Notes: generated from the letters alone by a model not told the origin. A stretch of 64,000 bases of DNA from Dictyostelium discoideum (GCA_000004695.1 CM000151.3:1856001-1920000), one strand, 5' to 3'. Numbered from the stretch's first letter, positions 9,232 to 33,670 are shown. A program made the numbers and translations.

Positions 9232-9334
9232 ATGTTAATATTTATAATATCAATAATAATTACTATTGCCTCAATAATATTTTTATTTGAAACTGTATTT
9301 AATAAAAATAGTAATACTATAAATAATAATAATA

Positions 9335-9395
<61 letters not shown>

Positions 9396-9588
9396 TAATA
9401 TAAAAGAAAACAACATAGACAAAAATAAAGAAATTAAAATAAAAGAAAAATTAATTTTAAATAATAATGACCCAAAAGAGAACGATTTAAAATATAAAGA
9501 AGAATTTAATAATTTTTTAAATAAATTTTCAAAAAATCAAGAATATGGTTATAAAGATAATTTAATTGATAATGAATTAAGAAATCAT

Positions 9589-9636
<48 letters not shown>

Positions 9637-12255
9637 GATGATCAATTTCCAAAATTAAAAGACATAGTTTATTTAGATCATGCAGCGAGTACATTAGCAT
9701 CAATGAATCAAATTGAAGAGATATCAAAAGAGTTAAAGAATTCAATGTTTTGTAATCCACATAGTGTTAATCCAATTGGACTAAAAACCAAAGAAGAGGT
9801 TGATTCAATTAGAGAGAACATATTAAACTATTTCAATGCACCCTATAGACAATATAGTGTAATATTTACAAGTGGTTGTACTGATAGTTTAAAAAAAGTT
9901 GGTGAATATTTTGCATGGACTAAAAATAGTAAATTCTATTATTCATTAGAATCTCATAATTCATTATTGGGTATAAGAGAATATGCATGTGAATCAATTG
10001 GTGGAAGTTCAACCACCTCATTTCAACCAATACCCTCATTATATTTTAAATGTAATAATAATCAATTTAACGATATTTTAGAGATTATTGGTAATAATGA
10101 TGATAATAATAATGAATCATATAGTTTATTTGGATATCCAGGACAATGTAATTATTCAGGTACGAAATATCCATTAGAATTAATAAATAGAATTCAAAAG
10201 AAGTATCCAAAATGTAAGGTGTTACTTGATGCAGCGAGTTTAGTATCAACATCATCATTTGATTTAACAAAGTATCCAGTTGATTTTATGACAATTTCAT
10301 TCTATAAAATGTTTGGTTATCCAACTGGTATTGGCGCATTAATTGTAAAGAATGATAGTGGTGAGAAATGTTTAATCAATAAAAAGTATTTTAGTGGTGG
10401 TACAGTTAATGTTTCAATGGCACAGGAAAGATTTCATGTTGATAGACCCTCATTAAGTGAAAGATTAGAAGATGGTACTATTAATTTCATGAATATAATT
10501 TCATTAAAACATGGTTTCAATATTATAAATAATCAATTAGGTGGTATTGATAATGTTAAATTACACACATTTTCATTGACTCAATATTGTAAAGAGGAAA
10601 TGTTGAAATTGTATCATAGTGATAATTCAAAACAACAACAACTTTGTATAATCTATTCAGATAATCATTTTAAAGATTCAAGTAAACAAGGTTCAATTAT
10701 TAATTTCAATATATTTAGATCAAATGGTGAATTATTTGGATATAATCAAGTTGAAAAGTTAGCATCATTATCATCGATTTATTTAAGAACTGGTTGTTTT
10801 TGTAATCCTGGTGCATGTCATGGTTATTTAAATCTATCAAAAAAAGATATTGAACAACATTTAAAAGATGGTCATGTTTGTTGGGATTCAAAAGATATAT
10901 TAAATGGTAAACCAACTGGTTCAGTTAGAATCTCATTTGGTTATATGAATAATTTTAATGATGTTTATAAATTCATTAATTTCTTAAAATCAAATTTTAT
11001 AAATGATCATAAATTTGAAAAAGAAGTTATAAAATCAAATAAAAAAATTAATAATAATCTTTGTGATATTAGTGATAATATTAGTTGTAGTGGAAGTTGT
11101 GGTGGAAGTTGTGGTAGTAGTGGAAGTGGTATTGAGGATTACCAAGTTCAATATAGTAATAATATAAAAGAAGAAAAAGAAGAAGAAGAAAAAGAAGAAA
11201 TTGAAAATTTAAAAAATGAAAAAGATAATGATGAAGTTTTATTATCAGAAATTTATATTTATCCAGTTAAATCATGTTCAGGACATAAAGTTGTAAATGA
11301 TAAATGGGAATTAGTACCATCAGGATTAAAATATGATAGAGAGTGGACAATTATTGATCAAAGTGGAAATTATATAAATCAAAAAAAGTTACCAATTTTA
11401 GCATTAATTCAAACTGAAATCGATTTAATTAATGATAAATTAATTTTAACAGCACCAGAGATGAAAGTTTTATCAATACCATTATCTTATTATCCAATAT
11501 CTGCTTTTGATCAAATTCAAGTTTGTGGTGATAAAGTTGATGGTTTATTATATGGAGATAAAGATTTCTCAAATACTAGTGGTAGTAGTGCTGGTAGTGG
11601 TGGTGGTGGTGGAGGTAATATTGATAATATTAGTGAATGGTTATATCAATTTATAGGTAAAAGATGTTATTTAGTTAGAAAATCACCAGAATCACATAGA
11701 AAATCAAAAGTTGACTCATCAAATGAAATTTCATTTGCAAATGAATCACCATATCTTTTAATTAATGAAGAGAGTGTATCAGATTTAAAAAAGAGAATTA
11801 TAAAGGATAACCCTGATAGCGTACCTTCTGATTGGAATTGGATAAGTAAACATAGTTTTAGAGCAAACTTTATCATCACTGGTGGTAAGGCTTATCAAGA
11901 AGATCTATGGTCACAATTTCAATTAATTAGTAAACAACAAAATGATACCACTCAATCATCATCGTCACCGTTAGTATTTAATTCAGTTGGTGATTGCAAT
12001 AGATGTAAAATGATATGTATTAATCAAAAGATGGGTATTGAAGAAAGAGAGCCATTATCAACTTTAGCATCCTATAGAAGATCAGGTGGTAAAATTATAT
12101 TTGGCCAACATTTAAATTTTGCTGATTCAATCAAAAGAAATAATTCTCATACAAATGATACAGCTTTAAGTAGTAATGAATCTTCAATCTCATCTTCAAA
12201 TCCAATATTTTTACATGTTCCAAGTAAATTAAAAGTTTTATCAGAGAGATATTAA
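9232..12255 (+). CDS. mocos: Molybdenum cofactor sulfurase (MOCOS/ABA3/HMCS-like): class V aminotransferase (NifS-like) domain plus C-terminal MOSC domain.
   Basis: YLDHAASTL near the start of the catalytic domain. The PLP-lysine motif [18 protein letters not shown] is present. The C-terminal half has MOSC beta-barrel features ([45 protein letters not shown]). The low-complexity TM/poly-N N-terminal 140 aa mean the start codon may be further downstream. Confidence 0.85.
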
Positions 12256-19233: not shown

Positions 19234-19548
19234 TTAAAAGAAGTGACCATGGTGATGACCGTGGTGGTGACCGTGGTGGTGATGGTGACCAGTTTCATAG
19301 ACGACTGTGGTAGTTGGATAAACCATTGGTTGTGGGACCATAACTGGAGCGCCCATCATTGGTGGTGGGACCATAACTGGAGCACCCATCATTGGTGGTT
19401 GACCGTAGATTGGCATTGGTTGAACCATTGGTTGGACCATTGGTTGGACCATTGGGACGACTGGAGCACCATAAACGCCGGTGGTGTAGGTAATGGTATC
19501 ATGATGGTGATGACCGTGATGACCGTGATGATGATGATGATGACCCAT
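19234..19548 (-). CDS. His-rich small protein with (P-M-V-Q)/(PPMMGAPVMV) repeats; member 1 of a 4-member paralogue set in this window.
   Basis: MGHHHHHHGHHGHHHH ... PMVQPMVQPMVQPM ... PPMMGAPVMVPPPMMGAPVMV ... HHHHHGHHHGHHHGHFF*. The architecture (His blocks at both ends, Pro/Val/Gln core, GHFF terminus) is shared with 30873..31127, 31722..31991 and 32648..32929. Confidence 0.5.
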   Translation of the reverse strand: MGHHHHHHGHHGHHHHDTITYTTGVYGAPVVPMVQPMVQPMVQPMPIYGQPPMMGAPVMVPPPMMGAPVMVPQPMVYPTTTVVYETGHHHHHGHHHGHHHGHFF

Positions 19549-20170
19549 TTTGTATATATTTATATGTGTAAAATTTTATTTGTTTAAATAATGTGAAAGA
19601 AAAAAAAAAAAATTGAAAAAAAAAAAAAAATTGTTTTTATATTTATTTTATTTTTTTTTTATTTTTTCTATTTTTTTTTGAGAAATTAAAAAAAAAAAAA
19701 ATAAAAAAAAATAAAAAAAAAAAAATATTTTTAACGCCCTTAGCGATCTCTTGTTTTTTCTGGTGACTTGTAAAATTAAACAAAAAATAAAACTTATCTT
19801 TATTTTTCATTATTTTTTATTTTTTTTCCCATATTTTTTAAAAATAATTCGAAAAAAATAATTATTACATATTATAATAATATGTAGTAAAAAGAAAAAA
19901 AAAAAAAAAAAAAATTGATGTTTTTTAAAAAGTGGTAAAATTTTGTGTGGTTTGAATTATTACCACTTTTAAAATAAAAATAAACTTAAATTTAGTTTTT
20001 ATTTTTCAAATAATAAAATAAAATGAAATAAAATAAAATGAAAAAAACAATAAAATAAATAATAAAATTATAAAGGTAATTTTAGATGCAATATAAAATT
20101 TATTTTATTTTAATACATTTTATTACATTATATTTTAATTTATTATTTGTTTTATTTTATTATTTTTTTT

Positions 20171-20422
20171 TTAATTACTTTCAATATTATGATATCCTCC
20201 ATTGCCATTAATTTTTTTGATGGATTTACTAAATTCAATATTTAATGTTAGATTTGAAAATTCATAAAAGAATGTCACCATATATGCAAATATAGATAAT
20301 GCCGACATAATTTCAAAAATTGCTGCCAAGTTATCGATAAAAAATTGTGTAATAATATCTTAAATAAAAAATAAAATTAAATATTAATATATTTATATAA
20401 AAAAAAGAAAAGAGAAAACAGG

Positions 20423-20466
<44 letters not shown>

Positions 20467-21131
20467 AATATAAAAATTAAAACTTACAACCAATAAATAA
20501 ACAAGATATACAAATTAATATTTTTCTAATTATTAAAACTTTCAAAGGAATATCACTTGAATTTTTAATATCTAGTATAGTTTGAGTTAATAAATAAATA
20601 AAACCACATAAAAAAAACAATGCTGCAAAGATAACATGAACAAGGTTTGCGTTATGAAATTGAAAAGATGATACACCATGCATTGATAAACCACTAATGA
20701 ATCCCATTGATGTTGAAAATCTATTGAATCTTAATTCTTTTTTCTCTTTTTTATCATCAAAATATTCCTTTTCAATTATATTATTCTTTATAATTAAATG
20801 TTTAATAAATACCACAATAATCATTAAAAATGCTATAATTGATAATCCAAATGTTCCAATACAACTTTCTTTTTTTTTTTTTAAAAAAAATAAAAAAAAA
20901 AACAATTAGAATTTTTGTTTAATGATAACTCAATGATTAAATTATATTTCATTTATATATATACATACCTGGGGCAAAATCGATTGTATCACTTATATAT
21001 GGAATAATTTGATCATCATCTCCACGTACTTCAGTTATAGCATATGTGGTGATGAATGTAATCGGAACAATTAAAGATATTATACATAATATATAAAAAG
21101 GTTTTATTTGTGTAGTTTTTGATGAAATCAT
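20171..21131 (-). CDS. DRAM / Frag1 / Sfk1 (TMEM150-like) family multi-pass membrane protein; three exons, approximately join(21131..20969,20868..20488,20351..20171) on the minus strand.
   Basis: Exon 1 encodes MISSKTTQIKPFYILCIISLIVPITFITTYAITEVRGDDDQIIPYISDTIDFAP, containing the family PYISDT motif. Its donor is GTATGT. Exon 2 encodes ESCIGTFGLSIIAF ... HNANLVHVIFAALFFLCGFIYLLTQTILDIKNS (compare DRAM [22 protein letters not shown]). Its donor is GTAAGT at 20487..20482. Exon 3 follows a TTTAAG acceptor: YIITQFFIDNLAAIFEIMSALSIFAYMVTFFYEF ... ESN*. Exon 2 boundaries are uncertain by 1 nt. Confidence 0.6.
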
Positions 21132-21237
21132 GAAAAAAAAAAAATAATTAATTAAGCATTTGAAAAAAAAAAAAAAAAATTAACTAAAAAAAAAAAAAAT
21201 TGAAACAGAGTTCCACCTTTTCAACAAATTTTGAAAA

Positions 21238-21420
21238 AAAAAAAAAAAAATTAAAATCCAATTCCACCGAGTATTATTTAATTATTTAATTATTTAATTA
21301 ATTATTCTGGTAATTCAAATAAAAATTAAAATACAATTACACCGAGTATTATTTAATTATTTAATTATTTAATTGTTTATTCTGGTAATTCAAATAAAAA
21401 TACAATTGATGATGACAAAC
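21238..21420. repeat. Two tandem copies of an approximately 85-bp AT-rich unit in the 5' flank of the DRAM-like gene.
   Basis: The string ccaccgagtattatttaattatttaattatttaatt..attctggtaattcaaataaaaat occurs twice in direct orientation. Confidence 0.6.
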
Positions 21421-22127
21421 CAATAATGAAATCAAAAATGAATCCAAAAAGAATAATATAAATTTTATTTTATTTATAATTTTATTCTCAAACAATTTTA
21501 ATTATTTAGATTAATCTATTATTTTAGATCTAAAATAAAAATAACATTCCCACCAAAAACAATGATTGAGTATGTATAAAAATGATTATTTTGAGTGGAT
21601 TTGTGTTTAAAATATAATATAATAAATTTTGTACTTGTTTTTAATAATCATTTTTAAAAAATATATTTTTTTTTTTCTTTTATTATATTATTATTTATTT
21701 TTTTAATATTTTTTTTATTTTTTAATTTTTTATATAATAATAAATATTTTTGTTTTTTTTATTAAGTGTGTGATTGGGAATTTAAATTATAATTTAAATT
21801 ATATATAAATTAAAAATATAAACACTTCTCATAAACTACTTTTTATGGCAATGGGTGAAAAAAAAAAATAATATTCATTTAATTAAAAAAAAACACACCC
21901 TAAAAAAGTTTAATATGAATAAATAGTATTTCAATATGATGAAAGAAACATCGAGTGGTGAGTGTGGTAAACTTAACACAGTGTTTAATAAACATGATGA
22001 GAAATATTGAAAATCATACAACAAAACTGATAAATTACTAGGATGTGTGAGTGTGTTGAAAAACATTTTCAATAAATAATGTGATTATTTTTTAATTCAA
22101 TATTGAAGCATTACCTTATTATTATTA

Positions 22128-22158
<31 letters not shown>

Positions 22159-22398
22159 CAATATTGAAGCATTACCTTATTATTATTATTTTTTTTTTTT
22201 TTATTTATAATTTTTTTTTATTTATTCCTAATCATAACACTATAAATATTTATATTTTTTTTATTATTGAAGCTTTACATTATTATTTTAAATATATTTT
22301 TTTTTAATTGATTTTTATTTTAAATCATAAACATTAATAATAAATTAATAAACACATTCTCAAAAAAAAAAAATTTTAATATTAAAAAAAAATCAAAA

Positions 22399-24672
22399 AT
22401 GAAAATTATTATATTATTTTTTATATTATATTTAGTTTCTGTTACGCTCGGAGTTTTAATTGAACCAGTTTTCAAGGGCAAATATTTAATATTTAAAAAT
22501 AATTTTAAAAATTCTTTTGATGGCAATCTAATTCACCATTATTATCAGATACACATGCCAACACTTGACCATGTAAATTTTTAGCAATATCAATTGTCAT
22601 GACAGCAGCGCATGTTCTTGTTGTGCTATTATTTTTACATTCAAAAACCAAGTCATAGATAAAATCTTGAAAATTTCATTTTTGAAAATATGTACTATCA
22701 ATATCATATGTATATTCCAATGATTGTTTTGTAATTTTAAAATCTGAAATTAAAATAAAATTATTAGAAAAAATTAGTGTTGGAGATATCGATATCTTTT
22801 AAAAAAACACAATGTATCGACAAATGATTTATCCTATTTAGTTTTTTATCGACTCAATTTTTAAAAACAAATAAAATGAGGTAGTTATTAATTTTAAATT
22901 ATTTTGTTAAAAAAATGCAACTCTTTTTTTTTTTTTTAGGTAATCCTTTAGGTGACTCAATAGATGCTACAAATTTATTACTCGATTATAAAGGTGGTTG
23001 TGGTACGAGAATAATTCAGTGGCCAAACGGTTATAAATATAGCTTTAATCATTCTAATCCAGTAATTGATAATATCTCTATTGAAAGCTCATCTTTTATA
23101 TCACTTGGTCATAATTTTTGTAATAGTCCCGAGTCAATTCAAGTTTATTTAGATGGTGTTCAAATTGATAAATCAAAAATAAAATAAAATCAATTGATCA
23201 TGAACAATTTGAAATTATTTACAGTCAAGAACATTCAAAATCCATCATTGTGAAAATTGTCTCTGGTGGACTTGAATCAAACAAATTCAAATTAGACTAC
23301 AAACCAATGCCATTAAAAATTAATAGTGTTCCAAGATTAAAAGGTGGTTCAATTACAATAATTGGTGAAAGATTATCATCACAAGTAAATAATTCAACAA
23401 TCATTGTTAAAATTGGTCAATATGATTGTAAAAATGTAATCTCATCAAAAAATGAAATTCTATGTAATTTAGAATCGGTTTCAAATGTTGAAAAAGTCAA
23501 ATTGGTAGATTTACCAGTTAATATCTCAATAAATGGCATTTTTAATGAAAATAATTTATTATTCTCATTCGATACTCCAATAATATCAGATTTTATACTT
23601 CCTCAAGGTGAAGTTAAATTAGTTGGCCATTGTTTTGGTTATTCACAAATAACTCAAATTAATATTGACAATGTATTACAATCCAACATAACAATTAATA
23701 TAAATGAAAAAGAAACAACACTTTTATTTAAGCCAATTCTTCCAATTAAAAAATCAAAGTTATATATAATTGTCAATGGTACAAAATCAAATACTATTGA
23801 AATTGATTCATCATTTTTTGTAAAAAGTGTTCCATCATCACCTTCAGTAAATGGCCAAACTGTAAACTTTACACTTTTCAATATAAACACAAATAATTTT
23901 AATGCAACACCAATTATGACTTTTCAAGATAATAGTTCAATTAAATCAACTGATTATAAAAATTCAAATGAATATTCCACTCATATATACTCTTTTGAAA
24001 TTCCAAAAAGTTGTGGTAGAAATGAAATTACAATAAACAAGTTTACAATTGTTCATTTATAAAATATAAATCTATCTCTTGTGATATTAAATTAGAAGGT
24101 CCGTTTGATCAACTTTGTAAAATCAAATTTAATGGTAAAGATGAGGAGAACAACATTTCAATATCATATTATCCTCCATTAGTATTAAATTCAACAACGA
24201 TTTCAAATTCATCGATTGGTGGAATTATTACAATTTTTGGTAATGAATTTTATAATGAAATTGATTTAATTACAGTTGGTAAAAGCAAATGTTTAAACTC
24301 TACATTTATAAATTCAACATCAATTTCATGTTTTGTGGAACCTTCAAATTTTATTATTAATCAAGCCAAACAACAACAACAACAACAATATGTTAACATT
24401 ACAATTAATGGTAAAAGTGGTGGCAATAATTTAAATATTTATTTTGATAATTCATTTATTGAAGTTAAAAATTAATCAAGCGAAAATGATAAAAACAACA
24501 ACAACAACAACAATGGTAGAAATAAAATTAATGATGATAGTAAAACTGATGGTAGAAGTTTGTATGAAAAATATAAAAAATATTTTATAGCACCTATAAT
24601 AATCGTTAGTTTGTCATTAATTATAGTTGCCTTTAAACTTATACTTTACTTTAATAGAAAAAATGGGCTGTA
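22399..24672 (+). pseudogene. IPT/TIG-repeat type I membrane protein (Tgr / LagC-like cell-surface family) carrying disabling lesions; probable pseudogene or a gene with sequence errors.
   Basis: Signal peptide MKIIILFFILYLVSVTLG at 22399. A possible 366-nt intron (GTAAAT at 22573 ... TTTTTTAG at 22938) joins in frame to GNPLGDSIDATNLLLDYKGG. There are at least three IPT-like repeats (PMPLKINSVPRLKGGSITIIGERL..IIVKIGQYDCKNV..ILCNLE; [48 protein letters not shown]). The reading frame is broken in A-runs near 23180 and 24050. There is an in-frame TAA at 24474. A TM segment FIAPIIIVSLSLIIVAFKLILYF and the short tail NRKNGL* end at 24672. Confidence 0.4.
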
Positions 24673-24747
24673 GTCTATTGGAAATATATTATAAAAGAGA
24701 AAATAAAAAAATTTAAAAATAGAAAAGAGCAAAAATGTATAGATGGT

Positions 24748-25083
24748 ATGAGAGAAATATTAAATAATGCAGAGAAAAATTTTCCTGACATAAAATTAGA
24801 TAATGTAATAACTTATAAAAAGTATAAAATGCCACAAGAAAAAAGTGTAGAAGGAGAACTAAAAGAACAAGCACCTCCTCTAAGTGAATATGACCAATTT
24901 CCAAGTTATTATTTACATTCACCAAAAGATTCACAACCTTCAAATCAAATTGAAACTTTACCAAAAGATTCACCTCCTCCAAATCAAAATGAAAAATTAA
25001 CAGAAGATTCATTACCACCTTCAAATCAAATTGAAACGTTACCAGAAGATTCATCACCACCTCCAAATCAAACTGAAAAATAA
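24748..25083 (+). CDS. Short ORF encoding a Pro-rich 12-aa tandem repeat (SPPPNQ-I/N-E-T/K-L-P/T-E/K-D); a separate small gene or an out-of-frame tail of the preceding Tgr-like locus.
   Basis: Track ORF 24748..25083. The repeats are visible in both nucleotide and protein sequence. The antisense ORF 24713..25090 mirrors the same repeat. Coding status is uncertain. Confidence 0.25.
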   Translation: MREILNNAEKNFPDIKLDNVITYKKYKMPQEKSVEGELKEQAPPLSEYDQFPSYYLHSPKDSQPSNQIETLPKDSPPPNQNEKLTEDSLPPSNQIETLPEDSSPPPNQTEK

Positions 25084-25293
25084 CAGACAATTCATCATCT
25101 CGAGATGGACCATCAAGCTCTTCATAATTTCTTTTTTTTCTTTACTGGACCACTTTCTGTATTTTTAATAATTACAGATTGGAACCCACCAAAGCTATTA
25201 CTATTATTATTATTGTTGTTGTTGTTGTTATTATTTGTAGTATTCATACCACTTGCAAGATCTGCTAATGGGTCAAATACCATTGGTTTATTA

Positions 25294-25531
25294 TTAATCG
25301 ATTAAAGTTGGTTGTTGTTGTTGGGATGATTGGAAATTTGGTGTTGCTGGTGAAGGTCCACTTCCACTTGCTGCTCTTGGTCTACTTCTTTCGCCAGATG
25401 CTGCATTTGGATTATTTTGGATATGTATTATATAATCCAAAAGCCATAAAAAAAAAATAAAACTCACCTGCTCTATTACTATAATTTTCATATTCTGCTC
25501 TAGTATTACTATATGGATCCGAATCATATGA

Positions 25532-25581
<50 letters not shown>

Positions 25582-25884
25582 AACCTTCATCTCTACCATT
25601 GAAAGAGTCTCTTCTGGTTGTTTCTCTTTGGTTACCACCATATGAATATCTTTGGTTACCACCATATGAATCTCTTTGATTACCACCATATGAATCTCTT
25701 TGATTACTACCATATGAATCTGAATCATAACCACCACCATATGAGCCACCTCCATAACCAAAGTCACTGTTATCATTACCAATACCAACATATTTATTTT
25801 GGTTAGTCTTTGCTTTATCTCTTTCCTCTTTAATTCTTTGATCATCTTGTAATAAATCAATAACTTGTTTTGCTCTTTCACGAA
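25294..25884 (-). CDS. C-terminal two exons of an epsin/ENTH-like protein (last ENTH helix plus Gly/Tyr/Asn/Gln-rich tail); join(25884..25459,25400..25294) on the minus strand; 5' exons not found.
   Basis: The minus strand reads VRERAKQVIDLLQDDQRIKEERDKAKTNQNKYVGIG, which is close to the final ENTH helix of epsins (VREKAKQLVALLRDEDRLREERAHALKTKEKL). It is followed by SYGGNQRD repeats and poly-N. A GTGAGT donor lies at 25458..25453. A 58-nt intron ends AAATGCAG. The last exon reads ASGERSRPRAASGSGPSPATPNFQSSQQQQPTLID*. The exon begins at a TTTTAAAAG acceptor (25885/25886) with no ATG in the 175 bp before the neighbouring gene. Confidence 0.5.
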
Positions 25885-26059
25885 CTTTTAAAATAAATTG
25901 TTTATTTAAAAAAATATTTTGTTATTATGTGAATTCAATTTTTAAAAAATAATGAAAAAAAAAAAAAAAGGATGTAAATATTGATGATAATACTAAACTT
26001 TAAACAAAGGATCTTTTAATAAAAAAAAAGACACAAACCACTTTTTTTGTTTTTTTAAT

Positions 26060-27429
26060 TTATTTTGAATTAATTAAAAGATTATAAACTACAAATGATT
26101 TGGTTTGATCTTTTTTAAAATTAGGAATACTTTCAATTGCTTTTACGATTTGAGCTTCAGATATTTTAAAACCCATTTGATTAATAAAGAATTCGACAAT
26201 ATAAAATTGATCCCAACTAATAGCATGTTCCAATAATAAAGATAATTCTTTTTGAGTGTAAATTGAATTATTATTTGAAAGTTTCTTTGTTAAAACTCTA
26301 CGATATTGTTGATCATAAAATAAATGTTGAATTATTCTTAACCAACCATTTTTAATTACACCCTTTAAAAATTCGAATAGAGTTTCTTTGGCACTTTCAA
26401 TACTCACTTCAAAATCGGTACCATCAAATATTGGAAAATAAAATTCATTTAATAGTTTACATAATAAATTGATATCACCACTTTTTTTTACCCAATCTAA
26501 TAATTCCAAAATAACTTGATAATAGGGAGATGGATAACGTGGAATTCGATAATTATTTTCAAAAATCCATTTATTATTAATTTTATCATTTGAGAATATT
26601 GATTTTATACTATTATTATTATTATTATCTAATTTATTTGATATGAATAAACCAATATAATAACCTTTTGAAATTGTAAATCTACCAGATATTAAATCTT
26701 CATATCTAAAATTAAACATCCAATCAAGTAATTTAATTTTATTTGAATTCATATAATTATCATTTAAATGATCATTAAATTCCATTCTATTATTAGTTTT
26801 ACTAAGGATGGTTATTATATCATCAATATCTAATCTTGGATTTCTATTGATTTCTAAATAATGTGTAATTGCATCTTCTGTATATTTATAAATTCCAATT
26901 GGTTTATTAATTATATATGCTGCTGTTTTAATTAAATTTGATCTTTCAAAATTACTGTTATTTTCTTCAAGAATATTTTTTGAAAATGGTAATAATAAAT
27001 CTATATTACTATTGCTATTATTATTATTATTATTATTATTATCACTACTATTACTATTATTATTATTAGTAATTCCTAATAATTGTTCAAATCTTTCTAA
27101 TAAATCAATTCTACCTAGTGAATACCATGATACCATATCTTGAACTCTTTTAAAGAAACTATTTAAATGGTGAAAACAATAATCTAACATTTTAATTGAT
27201 TTAATATGTCTATGAAAATATGAAAATGATGAAAGGTATCCCTGATGTAATGCCATCATTGACTCTTTTTCAAGTACTTTTATTATATTAGAACAATTAT
27301 TATTAACAATACTATCCTCACCACCATATCCTTTAATTGCGATTTCAAGTAACTCTAAATCATCATATGATATTAATAAATGAAATATTGTGAATACTGA
27401 TAAATTTGACCATTCCTTATTCTTATTAT

Positions 27430-27525
<96 letters not shown>

Positions 27526-28034
27526 GATCATTTATTGCATTATTTATAAATTGAATTCTTTGTTTTTTACTATGACAATTTGAAAATAAAATATATGGAT
27601 ATTCTTCACCATGATTACTAACAGATTTGAAATTTTTAAAAATAGGTGGTAACACTTTTGAATCACCATAATGGTTAACTATAAATTTAAATAATTCGTA
27701 ATTTCCATACTCTAATGAAATAATTAAAAAGTATTCCCTTGGATATGGACTAGATGGAAGATGTGCTTTAAATATATCTTTATCAAAATCTAAATTAAAT
27801 ACTATTCTAATTTCAATTTGTTGAATAATTGTTCTACGAATTGGACTTTTTTCTTCACAAAAATCAATTAACTTTTTAATATTTGCTGTAGTTTGTTGAT
27901 AATTATTATTATTACTATCTTCATCATTTATTAACTTTGGTATTATTGATTTTATTTGAAGTTTAAGTTGAGAATTTGATAATTTTGATTTAATTTCATT
28001 AATTAATGGTACAATCAAATTTAAATCATCATTG

Positions 28035-28075
<41 letters not shown>

Positions 28076-28567
28076 TATATATGAAATTGAATAACAATAA
28101 TTTATTAAATCATTAATTGTAAATTTAGTTATATTAGTGGTACTTTTAATATTTATTTTAATTAAATCATCAAAAAGATTTTTTGTAACTACAGAAGATT
28201 GTAAAAAAAGGTAATTTAAAAATTTATATCTTTTTGGCGGATTTGAACGATGAGAATTTCCATTTGATTGGTTTATTAATAAATTTGTTAATAAACCTTT
28301 AATAATACAATTAGTTTTATCAGTATAAGTTTCCCAAAAATATTTAAACATTTTTAAATGTGAATGTATATTTATTAAATTTAAAATGTTTACCAACGAT
28401 TGTTCTTTTATTTTCCCATTTTTAGGTCCAAATTTACAATAGTTAAAATAATTATCTAATAAAACTTGAAATCCTTGAAAATTACCCACCTCTATTAATT
28501 CTTTTAAAACTTTTTTAAAACTAATAAAATATTTACCATAATTTCTAAATAACAATTCAAAGAATTC

Positions 28568-28666
<99 letters not shown>

Positions 28667-29245
28667 TGTTGGTGCATTTGTTTCTTTTTTATTTGATTTA
28701 TATTCTTTTTGAATATTAATAAATATATTTAAATACCATTCGGATTGTGGACAACGACCATCATAATAATAATTTCCAATTATTGGTTCATTTCTTTTGA
28801 TTTTATCTTTTAATAAATTTAAATAACCATTATTTAAAATCCAATCAATGTAAATTAAATCATCATATGAGTGATATTTACAATTTAAATTACCAAATAT
28901 GGTTTTAAATAAGATTTTATTTTTAAAAACTCTCCAAAATAATTGTTCATGTTTTTCAATATCTTTGATTGGTAATTGATAAATGCTACTATTAAATTTA
29001 TTAATTAATTTCTCTTTTGTTAATTCTTGTTTAATATTTCTTGAATCGTTCACAAATTTCTTTATTCTTTCAATTATTTCACTTTTTCTACCATTTGCTT
29101 TTAATTTTAATGTTTTTGCAACTTTTATTAATTCTCTACTTGATTTTGATTCTAATGATTCCATATCAATATCTTCTTTATTAGTGTCTAAATTATTTAT
29201 ACTATCATTCTCTTTTTTAAATTCATCTGTCTCATTATTTATCAT
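26060..29245 (-). CDS. Second member of the lineage-specific LFWK/RVxKNKxLF family (1061 aa), with poly-Asn tracts.
   Basis: Uninterrupted 3.2-kb ORF. The N-terminal region EQLFWRVFKNKILFKTIFGNL ... WILNNGYLNLLKDKIKRNE is paralogous to 13111..17250. A degenerate partial copy lies immediately upstream (29687..30390). Confidence 0.6.
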
Positions 29246-29686
29246 TTCAATTCAAAGTTTATTTGGGGTGGAATTGAAAAAAAAAAAAATGATCAAAAAA
29301 AAAAAAAAAAAGTAAAATAAAAAAAAAAAAAAATAATGAAAATAAAAAAAATTTAAGAATTAATTTAAAAAAAAAAAAATATTAAAGATCTAAAATAACC
29401 ACGATATTAAAAACACCCGACGATAACCCATACTGCCATCTCTTCATTTACTGTACCAAAATCAGACACATTATAATATTCCGATTCTCTCTGAAAACAT
29501 TTGTAACAATACCCGCAATCCTCATTTACCATCCACAACACATTAAAACAAAAGTGGAGCTCTCTACACATTAACACTTCCTTCTCCCTCATTAACTACA
29601 AACTAAAACATTACACTCTAAAACAAAAATTAAATAACAAACAATAAGCAAAGGAATATTACCTTACATTAGAAATTTATTTATTT

Positions 29687-30390
29687 TTTATTAATTAAAA
29701 GATTATAAACTACAAATGGTTTAGCTTCATCTTTTTCAGAATTTATAATTGCCTTTGCGATTTGAGGTTCAGTTATTTTAAACCCATTTGATCAACAAAG
29801 AATTCGGCAATATAAAATTGATCCCAACTAATAGCATGTCTCAATAATAAAGATAATTCTGTTTGAGTGTAAATTGAATTATTACTTGAAAGTTTCTTTG
29901 TTAAAACTCTACGATATTGTTGATCATAAAATAAATGTTGAATTATTCTTAACCAACCATTTTTAATTACACCCTTTAAAAATTCGAATAGAGTTTCTTT
30001 GGCACTTTCAATACTCACTTCAAAATCGGTACCATCAAATATTGGAAAATAAAATTCATTTAATAGTTTACATAATAAATTGATATCACCACTTTTAAAA
30101 GCCAATCGATGTCATTTATATCATCATATGAGTGATATTTACAATTTAAATAATTAAATATGGTTTTAAATAAAATTTTATTTTTAAAAACTCTCCAAAT
30201 TCTTTCAATTATTTCACTTTTTCTACCATTTGCTTTTAATTATAAAGTTTTTGCTACTTTTGTTAATTATTAACCAGATTTTGATTCTAATGATTCCATA
30301 TCAATATCTTCTTCATTATTATTATAATCTGTCTCATTATTTATCATTTAAGTTCAAAGTTTATTTGGTTTGTGGAATTAAAAAAAAAAA
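29687..30390 (-). pseudogene. Decayed, internally deleted tandem copy of the gene at 26060..29245 (3' 450 bp plus short internal pieces plus 5' end).
   Basis: 29690..30100 matches about 26070..26480 at 90% identity or better, with a 1-nt deletion (ttttaaaaccc vs ttttaaaccc) causing a frameshift. 30100..30180 matches about 28860..28930. 30185..30245 matches about 29060..29110. 30290..30385 matches 29160..29270 (the 5' end, start codon and upstream AAAGTTTATTTGG box). The 110-aa ORF 29773..30105 is 95% identical to the parent C-terminus. Confidence 0.7.
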
Positions 30391-30872
30391 AAAAAAAAAA
30401 AAATTTTATGTTTTGGTGGAAATAAAAAAAAAATAATTAAAGCCCCAAGAAACTCAAAAGCGCCAAAAGTTAACTTGGTGTATTAATGAAAAAAAACCAT
30501 GATATTTAATAAGGGGAGTCGAATAGAAAATAAAAAAATATAAGTAAAAAAAATAAAAAAAAAGAGGCGACAAACCAACCAGCGTCGCATAAAATTACTT
30601 TTCACCACTTTAATGCTGAAATTTTTACATTCAACCTTAATATTTAAACAAACAAAAATTGAAAAACAGAGCGGTTATTTTGATTTGAATAAGAAAATTA
30701 TGACCAAAAATAAATAGATAAATATTTTATTAAACATAAAAAAAAAAAGTAAAAAAAAAAAGTAAAAAAAAATAAAAATAAAGATAATAATAAATAGAAA
30801 AAATAAATTACAAGATTGTTTTTTTTTTTTTTTTTTTTTATTTGTTGAGTAACTTTTAAAACTTCAAACTAT

Positions 30873-31127
30873 TTAAAAGAAATGACCATGATGTCCGTGG
30901 TGTCCATGGTGACCATGATGACCATGATGGTGGCTAGTTTCGATGACAACATTGGTTGGTGGATAAACTACTGGAGCACCCATAACGACTTGTGGTTGAA
31001 CCATCATTGGTGGTTGACCATAAACTGGCATTGGTTGAACCATTGGTTGGACAATTGGGGTAGTTGTGTAAGTAACGTGTTCGTGGTGACCGTGATGACC
31101 GTGATGATGATGACCGTGTGGAGGCAT
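30873..31127 (-). CDS. His-rich small protein, paralogue 2 (MPPHGHHHHGHHGHHEH ... PIVQPMVQPMPVYGQPPMMVQPQVVMGAPVVYPP ... HHHGHHGHHGHHGHHGHFF).
   Basis: Same architecture as 19234..19548. The Dictyostelium start context is an A-rich 5' flank. Confidence 0.5.
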   Translation of the reverse strand: MPPHGHHHHGHHGHHEHVTYTTTPIVQPMVQPMPVYGQPPMMVQPQVVMGAPVVYPPTNVVIETSHHHGHHGHHGHHGHHGHFF

Positions 31128-31721
31128 TTTGTTTTATATTATATTTATTTAATGTTTGAAAAAATTTAATGAATGAATGAAAAAAAAAAAAATAAGTTTT
31201 TATATTGTTTTTTTTATTTTATTATTTTTTTTTTTTAATAATTTTTTTTTTTTTTTCAAAAAATCAAGTGACGTCAAAAAAAGATTTTTTTAATATTTCG
31301 AAAGAAAATTAAAAATTTGGGAGTTTAAAAAAAAACAAAAATTCGAAAATAAAAAGATATTTTTTTTTGTTTTTTATTTCACAATTATTTTTTCTCAAAA
31401 TTAAATTATCAAAATGTTATAACTTTAATTTTTGACCTGATTAAAATTAATTTTATTATATTTTATTTTATTTTTAGAATTTTTTAAAAAAAAAAAAAAA
31501 AAAAAAGTTTAATTTTTACCAATTTTCTCAATTTCTCTTTTTTTGTTTAGGAATATAGGGTTTTAGATTTCATTTAATATAACAATAAATATAAAAATTA
31601 AAAAATAAAATAATAGGTTTTTTTTATTATTATTTTTTTATTTTAGGTAATAATTAATTATAATACAAAGTTTTTTTTTTTTATTTTTGTTTTTGTTGAA
31701 AACTTTTGTTATTTGAATAAT

Positions 31722-31991
31722 TTAGTGGTGACCATGATGACCGTGGTGGTGATGATCATGATGACCATGATGGCCATGGTGATGATGATGTCCATGGTGG
31801 TGACCAGTTTCTAAGACAATTGTAGCTTGTGGATAAACTACTGGTGGTTGAACATAAACTGGTTGGACAACTGGTGGTGGTGCATAAATTGGTTGAACAA
31901 CTTGTGGTGGTGCATAAACTGGAGTGATTGTAATATGTTCATGGTGACCATGGTGACCATGGTGATGATGATGATGACCGTGTGGAGGCAT
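31722..31991 (-). CDS. His-rich small protein, paralogue 3 (core repeats PVYAPPQVVQPIYAPPPVVQPVYVQPPVVYPQ).
   Basis: MPPHGHHHHHHGHHGHHEH ... GHHHGHHHHHGHHGHHDHHHHGHHGHH*. Confidence 0.5.
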   Translation of the reverse strand: MPPHGHHHHHHGHHGHHEHITITPVYAPPQVVQPIYAPPPVVQPVYVQPPVVYPQATIVLETGHHHGHHHHHGHHGHHDHHHHGHHGHH

Positions 31992-32567
31992 TATGTTGTT
32001 TTTTCTTTTTTTTTAAACTAAATTGAAAAATTATTTATTTATATCTTTGTTATTTGTTGTTTGTTTATTTTTTTTTTTAAAAAAGCTAATTGAAATAATA
32101 AAAAAAAAAAAAAGTTTTTATAACCGTTTATTTTTTATTTTTATTTTTTTTTTTTTTTTTTTTTTTTTTTTGTAACTTTCAGATTTTTAAATAAAAATTC
32201 AAATAAAACAGTAGTCTGAAATTAAAAGAAATTTGGTAAAAGGCTGTTTTTTTTATTGGCGTCCTTATGTCGCCAATGTTAAAAGTAATTCTTGTTTGGA
32301 TTCAATTATTAAAAAAAAAAAAAAAACATCAACTTCTTTTTGAAAAAAAAAAACAAAAATTACCAGTGTTGTTTCACTGATTCCAAACCAAAAAAAGGAA
32401 TTATTATAAATTACAAGTATAAATAAATATTATTTTATTGATTATTAAAATAATTACCCAAATCTTAAATTAAAAAAAAATAGTTATTTAAATTTTAATA
32501 ATTTTCCATTTTTTTTTTAAATTTAATTAAAAATAATTTACAATATGTTTGATTTATATTCTTTATT

Positions 32568-32632
<65 letters not shown>

Positions 32633-32647
32633 GGATATTTTATCTAT

Positions 32648-32929
32648 TTAAAAGAAATGACCATGGTGGTGATGGTGATGGCCATGATGGTGGTTATCAG
32701 TTTCATAGACAATAGTTGTGGTTTGTGGATAAACTACTGGTGGTTGACCATAAATTGGTTGAACTACTGGAGGTTGGCCATAAATTGGTTGAACTATTGG
32801 AGGTTGACCATAAATTGGTTGAATACCTACTACTGGAGAAATTGGTTGAACAACTTGAGCTCCATAAACTGGGGTTGTAGTATAAGTAATTTCTTCATAA
32901 TGACCGTGATGATGATGATGATGACCCAT
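32648..32929 (-). CDS. His-rich small protein, paralogue 4 (core repeats PIYGQPPIVQPIYGQPPVVQPIYGQPPVVYPQ).
   Basis: MGHHHHHHGHYEE ... DNHHHGHHHHHHGHFF*. The nucleotide-level repeats of ccataaattggttgaac are obvious on the plus strand. Confidence 0.5.
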   Translation of the reverse strand: MGHHHHHHGHYEEITYTTTPVYGAQVVQPISPVVGIQPIYGQPPIVQPIYGQPPVVQPIYGQPPVVYPQTTTIVYETDNHHHGHHHHHHGHFF

Positions 32930-33670
32930 TTTTATTATTGTATTTATATTTATTTATTTATTTATTTATTTATATATATTAATTTATTTATTTATATTTA
33001 TTAATTTAATATTTTAATATTTTTGATTTAATTATTTTATTGGTTTTATATTTTTTTTTTTATTTTAATATTTATACCCCAATTTTAAAAATAAAATAAA
33101 TAATTAAAATAAAATTAAATAAAAAAAAAATTAATTTTTAATTTCAGATTTTTCAATTTCTTTGAAAAAAAGGTCTGAAATTAAAAATTTTTTAACCAAA
33201 CTAATCAGAATATAAAATAACAATCAATTAACAATATAAAAAAGAAGCCAACTGAAAGGGGTCTAAAATTTAAATAATAGTTACAATTAATCAAACTCAA
33301 AATCTCTTAAATAAATTTTATTTGAAAAAAAAAAAAATAAATAATGTAGAAATTGTTGAAATAAATTAAATAAAAAATAAATATTAATAATGTAGAAATT
33401 TAATATATTTTGGAAACATATTTAATTAAAATAACTATTAAAGTTAAATAATAATTTTAAAATAAAAAAAAAAAAAAAAAAAAAAAAAAAGTGATTTAAT
33501 GAGTGTTGTTGATTTAGGTTTTATTACCAAAAAAAAAAAAAAAAAAAAAAACTAATTTGAATTATAAAAAAAAATATAATTTTATTTGAAGTTGTTTTAG
33601 GGAAAAAAAAAAAAAAATTTTTTTAATCGTTTAAATTATTATAATTACTATTATTTTTATATGTTTTTGA

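What the first reader, a model, noticed from the sequence alone, without database searches (positions are those of the whole stretch)
19234..32929. Family of four His-rich, Pro/Val/Gln-repeat small proteins, three of them in a tight same-strand cluster
Four minus-strand ORFs share an unusual architecture. Each starts with M(G/PP)H(G)HHHH, has a core of short proline-containing repeats that differ between copies, and ends with a (GHH)n-GHFF tail. The four are 19234..19548, 30873..31127, 31722..31991 and 32648..32929. The core repeats are PMVQ, PIYGQPPVVQ and PVYAPPQVVQ. Terminal HG-rich blocks suggest divalent metal (Zn/Ni/Cu) binding. The rapidly diverging repeat cores suggest concerted or adaptive evolution. 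I cannot place them in a named family.
Basis: seen in the sequence. Interest (0 to 1): 0.6.

Follow-up and report, generated by a model that had tools for sequence, protein, structure and literature searches.

The report
Four small histidine-capped amoeba proteins
Four small, conserved genes on Dictyostelium discoideum chromosome 2 encode disordered proteins with a histidine-rich block at each end, which most likely bind metal ions or sense acidity in an organism with no detected classical metallothionein activity; no experiment has tested their function.

Summary
Four minus-strand ORFs lie at exactly the stated coordinates in D. discoideum AX4 chromosome 2. All share one plan: a His/Gly block, an (I/V)TYTTT motif, a His-free Pro/Val/Gln/Met/Tyr tandem-repeat core, a VVYP..TT.V.ET motif and a second His/Gly block. 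One detail is wrong: 31722-31991 ends GHHGHH, not GHFF.

They are real genes.
- All ORFs recovered in two other D. discoideum-type assemblies and in D. citrinum are intact, and every indel is a multiple of 3.
- pN/pS is 0.11-0.17 in the minus frame and 1.2-1.7 in the antisense frame.
- The His blocks are almost invariant (pN/pS 0.02).
- They have single exons, AAAATG starts and TATA plus oligo-T promoters.
- Two assemblies annotate one copy each.

No His-block ORF lies beside bcas3 in D. purpureum, T. lacteum or H. album. AlphaFold predicts disorder. There is no Lys, Arg or Cys. Net charge goes from about 0 at pH 7.4 to +13 to +28 at pH 5.

My best reading (about 0.4) is high-capacity cytosolic Zn/Cu/Ni buffers, like Hpn. 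Rivals are a pH switch and metal-bridged self-assembly. Adaptive evolution is not supported. The protein databases appear to lack this family, so its absence elsewhere is weak evidence.

The parts
19234..19548 (-). hrp1: single-exon gene, 104 aa, 11.7 kDa. It has 24 His, 12 Met, 16 Pro and no Lys, Arg or Cys. It is the Met-rich paralogue and has the highest GC3 (0.41).
   Evidence: ORF. Codon usage CCA 16/16, CAA 5/5, CAC 12/24, GTC 8/13. The D. citrinum orthologue starts at L008:23661 and is annotated there as a 100-aa product.
19498..19548 (-). hrp1 N-terminal His/Gly block, MGHHHHHHGHHGHHHHD (12 His)
19237..19290 (-). hrp1 C-terminal His/Gly block, GHHHHHGHHHGHHHGHFF (12 His)
19324..19455 (-). 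hrp1 core tandem repeats: 33 nt x 2.3 (PPMMGAPVMVP) at 19324-19399 and 12 nt x 3.5 (PMVQ) at 19414-19455
30873..31127 (-). hrp2: single-exon gene, 84 aa. N-block MPPHGHHHHGHHGHHEH (31077-31127); C-block HHHGHHGHHGHHGHHGHFF (30876-30932); PMVQ-type 12-nt repeat at 31029-31058.
   Evidence: Orthologues of 83 aa in L006, L007 and L008. pN/pS 0.04-0.07.
31722..31991 (-). hrp3: single-exon gene, 89 aa, 36% His. N-block MPPHGHHHHHHGHHGHHEH (31935-31991); long C-block ending GHHGHH (31725-31805); 30-nt x 2.9 repeat at 31836-31922.
   Evidence: Orthologues of 83, 90 and 82 aa.
32648..32929 (-). hrp4: single-exon gene, 93 aa. N-block MGHHHHHHGHYEE (32891-32929); C-block DNHHHGHHHHHHGHFF (32651-32698); 30-nt x 3.1 PIYGQPPVVQ repeat at 32732-32823.
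   Evidence: Orthologues of 91, 102 and 89 aa. The 102-aa form has one extra repeat unit and is an annotated gene in GCA_054859385.1.
33142..33180 (-). hrp4 promoter dyad TTTCAGAC-N23-ATCTGAAA, 213-251 nt upstream of the ATG
   Evidence: This dyad occurs only twice in the 64-kb window, and no shuffle produced a match. It is conserved in AX4, L006, L007 and D. citrinum.
32177..32221 (-). hrp3 promoter dyad TTTCAGAC-N29-ATCTGAAA, 186-230 nt upstream of the ATG
31269..31276 (.). TGACGTCA palindrome inside a conserved block of the hrp2 promoter, about 142-149 nt upstream of the ATG
   Evidence: It is the only TGACGTCA in the window. The block TCTTTT.T.GACGTCACTTGATTTTTTGAAAAAAAAAAA is conserved in all four taxa.
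19636..19641 (-). hrp1 TATAAA at -93, followed by two oligo-dT runs. This is the usual Dictyostelium core-promoter layout. hrp2 has TATAAA at 31199-31204 and hrp3 at 32117-32122, each followed by T13-14.
   Evidence: The promoter layout itself is from general knowledge of Dictyostelium promoters.

Best explanation
The four ORFs are real, single-exon, paralogous genes. So far they have been seen only in the D. discoideum / D. citrinum lineage. Each encodes a 9-12 kDa intrinsically disordered cytosolic protein built in three blocks. A His/Gly block of 7-20 His sits at each end. Between them is an uncharged Pro/Val/Gln/Met/Tyr tandem-repeat spacer with no His. These points are shown.

The mechanism is inferred. 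I think the terminal imidazole clusters reversibly chelate several divalent transition-metal ions per chain (Zn2+, Cu2+, Ni2+, Co2+). In hrp1 and hrp2 the Met-rich core could add Cu(I) binding. After removal of the initiator Met, the GHH- N-terminus of hrp1 and hrp4 would form an ATCUN-type Cu(II)/Ni(II) site. The proteins would then act as high-capacity, moderate-affinity cytosolic metal buffers or stores that release metal on acidification. That is the job of Hpn/Hpn-2 in Helicobacter and of metallothionein elsewhere, done here without any cysteine. Dictyostelium is reported to have no detectable classical metallothionein activity and to tolerate 50-500 times the physiological level of Zn and Cu.

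My confidence that these are real, selected protein-coding genes is about 0.9. My confidence that metal buffering is their main role is about 0.4.
For: Real genes:
- The ORFs are intact in three further assemblies: hrp2-4 complete in all three, and the N-terminal 31 codons of hrp1 in D. citrinum, where the locus ends.
- Every CDS indel is a multiple of 3, while 10-38% of alignment columns in the flanking intergenic DNA are gaps.
- pN/pS is 0.17 against the two other isolates (28 synonymous and 17 non-synonymous changes, p = 4e-9) and 0.11 against D. citrinum (p = 8e-21). The antisense frame gives 1.72 and 1.20.
- The start context is AAAATG, with TATA plus oligo-T upstream. hrp1, hrp2 and hrp4 have no AG within 100 nt upstream of the ATG, so there is no hidden upstream exon or signal peptide.
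- Codon choice is typical of Dictyostelium coding sequence: CCA, GGT and CAA throughout. hrp1 has GC3 0.41 with CAC/GTC/ACC, against 0.09 in the neighbouring 1061-aa ORF.
- One copy is annotated on this strand in each of two assemblies.

The His blocks are the functional part. Their pN/pS is 0.02 (29 synonymous, 3 non-synonymous changes), against 0.26 in the core. All His lie in the two terminal blocks.

Disorder and location. AlphaFold2 gives mean pLDDT 44 and no secondary structure. There is no hydrophobic N-terminus, no Cys and no Pfam domain.

Metal context. [quoted passage not shown] A native Dictyostelium poly-His domain, the AdcA H domain, binds Ni2+ resin without a tag (PMC3001460). 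The PDB profile search matched only engineered His-tags, which shows that the N-termini are effectively natural His-tags. His tracts as Cu, Zn and Ni ligands are established chemistry (for example PMC5756558, PMC8704837; titles and abstracts only).
Against: - I found no expression, localisation or metal-binding data for these genes. No Logan or NCBI gene call has exactly these products.
- No paper in the library prints these sequences.
- Nothing in the promoters identifies a metal-responsive element, and the conserved dyad is of unknown specificity.
- His clusters equally suit pH sensing, polyanion or polyphosphate binding, and self-assembly. The sequence alone cannot separate these.
- hrp2 and hrp3 start PPH after Met removal, which cannot form an ATCUN site.
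- The family is absent from the syntenic site in D. purpureum, T. lacteum and H. album. It therefore cannot explain metal tolerance across dictyostelids in general.
- The synonymous rate in the His blocks (pS 0.60) may be inflated by ambiguous alignment of CAT/CAC runs.
Confidence: 0.4

Rival explanations
1. They are a pH-operated electrostatic switch or proton buffer. The proteins carry almost no charge at cytosolic pH 7.4 and become strong polycations (+13 to +28) as pH falls towards 5-6.5. On acidification they would bind anionic partners such as membranes, actin, nucleic acids or polyphosphate. This is how the Dictyostelium His-rich protein hisactophilin works. It could feed into the known dependence of cell fate on pH.
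For: - Calculated charges are about 0 at pH 7.4, +4.5 to +13 at pH 6.5 and +13 to +28 at pH 5, with no Lys or Arg and only 2-4 acidic residues per protein.
- Selection is concentrated on the His residues.
- Another D. discoideum gene described as resembling histidine-rich glycoprotein, rigA (DDB_G0274655), changes expression with growth pH and influences prestalk/prespore bias (PMC6251973; PMC11379915).
- Its published qPCR reverse primer reverse-complements to a sequence that would encode HHGHHF in one frame, which resembles the GHFF tail here (my translation).
- Binding of His-rich proteins to polyphosphate is documented (PMC11352482).
Against: - There is no fold like hisactophilin's and no predicted structure.
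- Only two of the four start with Met-Gly, so a myristoyl membrane anchor cannot be a general feature.
- No partner is known.
- rigA is not in this window and I could not test whether it is related.
- pH switching and metal binding are not exclusive, because protonation is also how metal would be released.
Confidence: 0.2
2. They are linkers with two sticky ends. The two His blocks, joined by a flexible Pro-rich spacer, bridge metal ions between chains. Zn or Cu, or a pH shift, would then drive reversible condensates or gels. This is the principle of the His-rich ends of mussel byssal collagens (general knowledge). The material could be intracellular, or exported unconventionally into matrix, stalk or spore structures.
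For: - The three-block layout, with every His at the two ends and a Pro/Val/Gln/Tyr repeat spacer, is conserved in all four paralogues and all taxa.
- The proteins are predicted to be disordered.
- Spacer length varies through repeat number while the ends are fixed.
- Metal coordination by His-rich peptides is known to build protein assemblies (PMC8955739 and PMC10382482; abstracts only).
Against: - There is no signal peptide, so a matrix role needs unconventional export.
- There is no evidence of assembly.
- The conserved TYTTT and VVYET motifs next to the His blocks are not explained.
- The Pfam Extensin_1 match is only 18 bits against a cut-off of 105.
Confidence: 0.15
3. The ORFs are not functional protein genes. 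Either they are neutral by-products of CAT/CAC and CCA-rich microsatellite expansion, or the real genes are the plus-strand antisense ORFs (19243-19587, 30882-31169, 32657-33004).
For: - Both strands are open, and the antisense ORFs are slightly longer.
- Two of the four fetched assemblies call none of the copies, and the other two call one each.
- The exact proteins are missing from the protein collection.
- I found no transcript evidence.
Against: - pN/pS is 0.11-0.17 in the minus frame and 1.2-1.7 in the antisense frame, and 73% (58 of 79) of AX4 versus D. citrinum differences fall on the sense third position.
- Across pS = 0.35 of divergence, all indels keep the frame and the start and stop codons are retained.
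- The antisense products would be Trp/Met/Val-rich nonsense with no conserved start.
- Promoter and start-codon features lie on the minus strand.
- The two gene calls that do exist are on the minus strand.
Confidence: 0.03

Closest known systems
Hpn and Hpn-2 (Hpn-like) of Helicobacter pylori
   Same: Both are small cytosolic proteins dominated by His runs. Hpn and Hpn-2 store and buffer Ni and other divalent metals (PMC4671568 abstract; PMC8704837). Like them, this family is lineage-restricted and paralogous, and could have an N-terminal Cu/Ni site. This is the closest match for how the proteins probably work.
   Different: There is no sequence relationship: the profile search of 1.84 billion representatives returned no Helicobacter protein. 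The hrp proteins are eukaryotic and have no Cys pairs. Their His is confined to two terminal blocks around a 43-69 residue Pro-rich repeat core. They also carry the TYTTT and VVYET motifs.
Hisactophilin I/II of D. discoideum
   Same: Same organism, similar size (about 118 aa) and about a quarter His. Its HHGH-type motifs act as a pH sensor near pH 6.5-7 (general knowledge). hrp1 and hrp4 also begin Met-Gly.
   Different: Hisactophilin is a folded beta-trefoil with His spread over its loops, and it contains Lys and Arg. The hrp proteins are predicted to be disordered and have clustered His. The profile search of all PDB chains at E <= 10 listed no chain named hisactophilin.
His-rich region of vertebrate histidine-rich glycoprotein (tandem GHHPH), and D. 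discoideum rigA (DDB_G0274655), described as similar to it
   Same: Both have Gly/His/Pro-rich tandem repeats that bind Zn and gain charge at low pH. rigA is a Dictyostelium gene with an expression link to pH and cell fate (PMC6251973), and its qPCR primer would encode HHGHHF (PMC11379915).
   Different: HRG is a large secreted glycoprotein with cystatin-like domains. The hrp proteins have no signal peptide and no domain. In hrp, Pro and His are segregated rather than interleaved. I could not obtain the rigA sequence, so a relationship to it is untested.
Metallothioneins
   Same: Both are small, low-complexity, multi-site metal buffers. Dictyostelium is reported to lack a classical metallothionein activity (10.1101/356949), which leaves that role open.
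   Different: Metallothioneins bind metal through Cys thiolates. The hrp proteins contain no Cys. They would bind more weakly and release metal at mildly acidic pH.
sigN / hssA-2C-7E family of small Dictyostelium proteins
   Same: Both are clustered families of proteins under 100 aa on chromosome 2 of D. discoideum (PMC2257962).
   Different: sigN genes have a 13-nt first exon and an intron, encode 87-89 aa proteins with a predicted transmembrane segment (PMC2257962), and are Gly/Ser-rich (my recollection). The hrp genes are single-exon and unrelated in composition and sequence.

Membership tests
Hisactophilin | Folded beta-trefoil domain of about 118 aa | tested here: not met
   AlphaFold2 gives mean pLDDT 44 and no secondary structure. 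The profile search of all PDB chains at E <= 10 returned mostly N-terminal matches of the engineered His-tag type and listed no chain named hisactophilin.
Hisactophilin | N-terminal Met-Gly for myristoylation | tested here: inconclusive
   hrp1 and hrp4 start MG; hrp2 and hrp3 start MPP. Whether GHHHHH is a substrate for the myristoyl transferase cannot be decided from the sequence.
Hisactophilin | pH-dependent binding to actin and membranes | not testable with these tools
   Only the calculated charge switch is available: about 0 at pH 7.4 and +13 to +28 at pH 5.
Hpn / Hpn-2 (Helicobacter Ni-binding proteins) | Detectable sequence homology | tested here: not met
   The profile HMM against 1.84 billion representatives gave one hit, a bacterial Arg-rich protein matched on composition. 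The word-seeded searches gave only bacterial lipoprotein-like compositional matches.
Hpn / Hpn-2 (Helicobacter Ni-binding proteins) | Small cytosolic protein, His-dominated, binding several Ni/Zn/Cu ions per chain | not testable with these tools
   Composition fits: 18-36% His and no signal peptide. Binding has not been measured.
Metallothionein | Cys-rich protein with CxC/CxxC metal-thiolate clusters | tested here: not met
   None of the four proteins contains any Cys.
Histidine-rich glycoprotein type | Secreted protein with cystatin-like domains and interleaved GHHPH repeats | tested here: not met
   No Pfam domain. There is no hydrophobic N-terminus, and hrp1, hrp2 and hrp4 have no splice acceptor upstream that could add one. 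His and Pro occupy separate blocks.
sigN / hssA-2C-7E small-protein family | Two exons (13-nt first exon) encoding an 87-89 aa protein with a predicted transmembrane segment | tested here: not met
   The hrp genes are single uninterrupted ORFs starting at AAAATG. The family description is from PMC2257962.
Extensin-like proteins (Pfam PF02095) | Score at or above the Pfam gathering cut-off of 105 bits | tested here: not met
   hrp4 scores 18.1 bits, E = 0.0025; the other three give no hit.

The most novel reading that the evidence does not exclude
These proteins could be the cytosolic metal 'muffler' that Dictyostelium has seemed to lack: a cysteine-free counterpart of metallothionein. In this reading the two His-tag-like ends, plus a Met-rich core in hrp1 and hrp2, capture Zn and Cu. 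Because each chain has two binding ends, the loaded proteins would cross-link into reversible, pH-dissolvable condensates. Those condensates would hand metal to the contractile vacuole or to phagosomes used to poison bacteria. With no Lys or Arg, the proteins would yield no tryptic peptides, which would explain why standard tryptic proteomics has not reported them.
Probability: 0.15. Interest if true: 0.7.

Novelty: new variant of a known kind. Interest (0 to 1): 0.45.

Why it matters
Dictyostelium is a standard model for how phagocytes use zinc and copper against bacteria and protect themselves from those metals. [quoted passage not shown] A conserved four-gene family of His-capped disordered proteins is a concrete, easily deleted candidate for the missing cytosolic buffer. 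Three copies lie within 2.1 kb. The family could alternatively be a pH-sensing element in cell-fate choice.

There are also practical consequences:
- The proteins begin with what is effectively a natural His6-tag. They should therefore co-purify on Ni-NTA and may react with anti-His antibodies in Dictyostelium lysates.
- They have no Lys or Arg and so yield no tryptic peptides.
- Most of the recent genome annotations I could see do not call them.
- The terminal-block layout is a natural example of a design used in metal-crosslinked protein materials.

Tried and rejected
Searches that found nothing useful:
- Pfam scan of all four proteins. Only sub-threshold compositional matches came back: Extensin_1, DUF7157 and ORF29.
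- Exact-sequence look-ups and gene-position look-ups for the proteins, their orthologues and the antisense ORFs.
- Word-seeded homology searches with hrp4 and with the four-sequence profile. These gave only bacterial lipoprotein-like proteins matched on composition.
- Exhaustive profile search of 1.84 billion representatives. It gave one bacterial compositional hit.
- JGI metagenome scan. 600 pattern matches, none confirmed.
- PDB profile search. It found only engineered His-tags.
- Full-text search for six signature peptides, for Dictyostelium His-rich proteins, and for neighbouring dictyBase IDs in text and supplements. I could not establish the dictyBase IDs or any expression values for these genes. 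DDB_G0272947, DDB_G0272945 and DDB_G0272943 are a guess from the numbering next to bcas3 (DDB_G0272949).

Caveat on the negative searches. The 102-aa hrp4 orthologue is a called gene in GCA_054859385.1 but is missing from the protein collection, while its neighbours are present. The protein databases therefore seem not to hold this family, so 'no homologues' is weak evidence.

Ideas rejected or left unsupported:
- The sigN/hssA family has a different gene structure.
- A beta-hairpin clamp, in which TYTTT pairs with VVYET to bring the two His tails together, got no support from AlphaFold2. The alignment had only four sequences, so this is not a strong test.
- A hidden upstream signal-peptide exon is unlikely, because hrp1, hrp2 and hrp4 have no AG within 100 nt upstream of the ATG.
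- rigA being one of these genes is excluded, because its primers do not match the window.
- Similarity between paralogues does not extend beyond the coding sequence apart from A/T low-complexity matches, so these are not recent segmental duplicates.

Full report
**1. What is there**

The window is very A+T-rich (16-28% G+C in 2-kb bins). It comes from Dictyostelium discoideum AX4 chromosome 2. Four neighbouring ORFs are exact matches to DDB_G0272951, DDB_G0272716, DDB_G0272714 and terpene synthase 3, DDB_G0272706.

The gene directly upstream of the three-gene cluster is bcas3. Its translation finds BCAS3 WD40 proteins, and the Bcas3 paper gives the ID DDB_G0272949 (PMC8032249).

The four minus-strand ORFs are at exactly the coordinates given. 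I call them hrp1 (19234-19548, 104 aa), hrp2 (30873-31127, 84 aa), hrp3 (31722-31991, 89 aa) and hrp4 (32648-32929, 93 aa). A six-frame scan for His/Gly runs finds no further copy in the window.

**2. Anatomy**

The alignment and a block analysis show one shared plan, in this order:
- An N-terminal His/Gly block: MGHHHHHHG... in hrp1 and hrp4, MPPHGHHHH...GHHEH in hrp2 and hrp3.
- A short (I/V)TYTTT motif.
- A core of 43-69 residues made only of Pro, Val, Gln, Met, Tyr, Ile, Gly, Ala and Thr, apart from single Asn, Ser, Leu and Glu residues, with no His at all.
- A conserved VVYP(Q/P/T)TT.V.ET motif.
- A C-terminal (GHH)n block.

The C-terminal block ends GHFF in hrp1, hrp2 and hrp4. In those three the DNA at and after the stop reads TAAATAG.

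The cores are tandem DNA repeats:
- hrp1: 12 nt x 3.5 (PMVQ) and 33 nt x 2.3.
- hrp2: 12 nt x 2.5.
- hrp3: 30 nt x 2.9.
- hrp4: 30 nt x 3.1 (PIYGQPPVVQ).

The proteins contain no Lys, Arg, Cys or Trp, and almost no Leu, Ser, Asn or Asp. His makes up 18-36% of residues. Calculated net charge is about 0 at pH 7.4 and +13 to +28 at pH 5.

The features are mixed between paralogues. hrp1 and hrp2 share the Met-rich core, and hrp3 and hrp4 share the PxYxxPPVVQ core. By N-terminus, however, hrp1 groups with hrp4 and hrp2 with hrp3. Similarity between paralogues stops at the ends of the coding sequence.

**3. Are they genes, and on which strand?**

I fetched the orthologous region from other assemblies by anchoring on the neighbouring genes:
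- L001: GCA_054883475.1, identical to AX4 across the genes compared.
- L007: GCA_054859385.1, another D. discoideum isolate.
- L006: GCA_054859205.1, labelled D. cf. discoideum.
- L008: GCA_054859145.1, D. citrinum.

hrp2, hrp3 and hrp4 are intact in all of them, in the same order downstream of bcas3. In D. citrinum the start of hrp1 also lies beyond the Frag1-family gene, as in AX4. It is annotated there as a 100-aa product.

Substitution rates are 1.6-4.4% in the coding sequences and 4.5-22% in the intergenic DNA. Every coding indel is a multiple of three (3, 6, 18 or 27 nt), whereas 10-38% of intergenic alignment columns are gaps.

| Comparison | Frame or region | Changes | pN/pS |
|---|---|---|---|
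| AX4 vs the two isolates | minus (sense) | 28 synonymous, 17 non-synonymous | 0.17 (binomial p = 4e-9) |
| AX4 vs the two isolates | codon-aligned antisense | | 1.72 |
| AX4 vs D. citrinum (pS 0.35) | minus (sense) | | 0.11 (p = 8e-21) |
| AX4 vs D. citrinum | antisense | | 1.20 |
| AX4 vs D. citrinum | His blocks | 29 synonymous, 3 non-synonymous | 0.02 |
| AX4 vs D. citrinum | core | | 0.26 |

In the comparison with the isolates, 31 of 45 differences lie at the sense third codon position. In the comparison with D. citrinum, 58 of 79 do. The synonymous rate in the His blocks may be somewhat inflated by ambiguous alignment of CAT/CAC runs.

The genes also carry the usual local signals:
- The start context is AAAATG.
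- A TATAAA lies 77-131 nt upstream of hrp1, hrp2 and hrp3, followed by an oligo-dT run.
- hrp1, hrp2 and hrp4 have no AG within 100 nt upstream of the ATG, which excludes a hidden upstream exon.
- Pro, Gly and Gln are encoded almost only by CCA, GGT and CAA. hrp1 is enriched in C-ending codons (GC3 0.41, against 0.09 in the adjacent 1061-aa ORF). From published work on Dictyostelium codon bias, as I recall it, that is typical of well-expressed genes.

The minus-strand ORFs are therefore protein-coding genes under purifying selection. The plus-strand ORFs are mirror images: His CAT/CAC reads as ATG/GTG, and Pro CCA reads as TGG.

**4. Distribution**

No His-block ORF lies within 10 kb of bcas3 in D. 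purpureum (L009), Tieghemostelium lacteum (L010) or Heterostelium album (L011).

All protein-level searches were negative or returned only compositional matches.

These negatives need caution. The 102-aa hrp4 orthologue is a called gene in GCA_054859385.1, yet it is not in the protein collection, while its neighbours are. The databases available here therefore seem not to contain this family. I can say that the family is present in D. discoideum and D. citrinum and absent from the syntenic site in three more distant dictyostelids. I cannot say that it is absent from their genomes.

I also could not establish whether AX4/dictyBase annotates these genes. Of the four assemblies whose gene calls I could see, two call none of the copies and two call one each.

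**5. Structure**

AlphaFold2 on the four-sequence alignment gives mean pLDDT 44, pTM 0.14 and no secondary structure. That fits an intrinsically disordered protein, although the alignment is shallow.

I had considered that TYTTT and VVYET might pair as a beta-hairpin and bring the two His tails together. This got no support, but it is not excluded either.

**6. Function**

Nothing here measures function, so this section is inference from the anatomy and from what selection preserves. Selection acts most strongly on the two terminal imidazole clusters. That points to whatever clustered His does: coordinate Zn, Cu, Ni or Co, and titrate near pH 6-7.

My preferred reading (about 0.4) is a high-capacity cytosolic metal buffer or store that releases metal on acidification, working like Hpn/Hpn-2 of Helicobacter. 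The arguments are:
- Dictyostelium is reported to have no detectable classical metallothionein activity and to tolerate 50-500 times physiological Zn and Cu (10.1101/356949).
- hrp1 and hrp2 add 6-12 Met in M-x3-M and MM arrangements, which could bind Cu(I).
- After Met removal, hrp1 and hrp4 would begin GHH, an ATCUN-type Cu(II)/Ni(II) site. This rests on the established chemistry of that motif.
- A native Dictyostelium poly-His domain, the AdcA H domain, binds Ni resin without a tag (PMC3001460).

The rivals are:
- A hisactophilin-like pH switch (about 0.2). The charge jump supports it. So does rigA, a gene described as resembling histidine-rich glycoprotein, whose expression responds to pH and which affects cell fate (PMC6251973; PMC11379915).
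- Metal-bridged self-assembly through the two sticky ends (about 0.15).
- A non-gene or antisense-gene reading, now contradicted (about 0.03).

The remaining probability covers other roles, such as polyphosphate binding or nuclear-speckle targeting by His repeats (PMC11352482; PMC2644819). The three main readings share the same chemistry and are not mutually exclusive.

**7. Regulation**

Alignment of the promoters across the four taxa shows conserved blocks.

hrp3 and hrp4 share an inverted dyad, TTTCAGAC-N23/29-ATCTGAAA, about 190-250 nt upstream of the ATG. This dyad occurs nowhere else in the 64-kb window, which suggests the two genes are co-regulated by an unknown factor.

The hrp2 promoter has a conserved TGACGTCA palindrome, the only one in the window. 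hrp1 has its own conserved blocks.

**8. Evolutionary mode**

What changes between taxa is repeat number and His-run length, always in frame:
- hrp4 is 93, 91, 102 and 89 aa in AX4, L006, L007 and D. citrinum.
- hrp3 is 89, 83, 90 and 82 aa.

Repeat units within a gene are 84-96% matched at DNA level. That fits replication slippage and recent expansion, under a constraint that keeps the composition and the terminal blocks.

**9. Verdict**

The strand assignment and the reality of the genes are now well supported. Metal binding remains a reasonable but untested inference.

I rate this a new variant of a known kind. It is a natural His-rich, probably metal- or proton-binding disordered protein, with a distinctive terminal-block layout and no detectable relatives. 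It is moderately interesting because it is a cheap, testable candidate for a known gap in Dictyostelium metal homeostasis, and because it matters in practice for IMAC, anti-His detection and tryptic proteomics.

Noticed in passing
window 29700-30150 compared with 26165-26464: A partial duplicate of the 3' end of the SAP-domain 1061-aa gene (300 nt, 97% identical) lies between that gene and hrp2. It is annotated as a 144-aa gene in the AX4-identical assembly. The extra copy is absent from the other D. discoideum isolate, from D. cf. discoideum and from D. citrinum, so it is specific to the AX4 lineage.
   Followed up: partly
window 32177-32221 and 33142-33180 (minus strand): The inverted dyad TTTCAGAC-N23/29-ATCTGAAA occurs only in the hrp3 and hrp4 promoters within the 64 kb. 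It is conserved in four taxa. The factor that binds it is unknown.
   Followed up: partly
window 31269-31276: The only TGACGTCA palindrome (CRE/bZIP type) in the window sits in a conserved block of the hrp2 promoter.
   Followed up: partly
window 9232-12252 (+) compared with L008:939-3947: The molybdenum-cofactor-sulfurase-like gene (Aminotran_5 + MOSC_N + MOSC) lies beyond hrp1 in AX4. In D. citrinum it lies on the opposite side of the block, next to the NPL-domain (PF17800) gene beside the RPN11 and PSMB genes. There has been a rearrangement between the two species around the conserved bcas3-hrp segment.
   Followed up: no
L007:17400-17708; protein collection: The 102-aa hrp4 orthologue is a called gene in GCA_054859385.1 but is not in the 15-billion-protein collection, although neighbouring proteins of the same assembly are. 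Negative homology searches for this family are therefore unreliable.
   Followed up: yes
window 22915-24062 (+): ORFs with IPT/TIG and TgrO1-like immunoglobulin-like domains (Tgr/Tiger family), split over two frames. This may be a pseudogene or a multi-exon gene lying between the Frag1-family gene next to hrp1 and the SAP-domain gene.
   Followed up: no
window 24713-25881: A repeat-rich stretch is open on both strands. The plus frame gives PPSNQIETLPEDS-type repeats and the minus frame gives IHMVVIKE-type repeats, next to long AAT/ATT runs. Which strand codes, if either, was not examined.
   Followed up: no
window 8484-8507 (-) and 60882-60899 (+): Two further runs of 6-8 His codons. Both lie in frames broken by stop codons and are unrelated to the hrp family.
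   Followed up: yes
not in this window (rigA, DDB_G0274655, chromosome 2): The published rigA qPCR reverse primer (ccgaaatggtgaccatggtg) reverse-complements to a sequence that would encode HHGHHF in one frame. The gene is described as similar to histidine-rich glycoprotein. It could be a distant relative carrying the same GH...F tail. Its primers do not match this window.
   Followed up: partly
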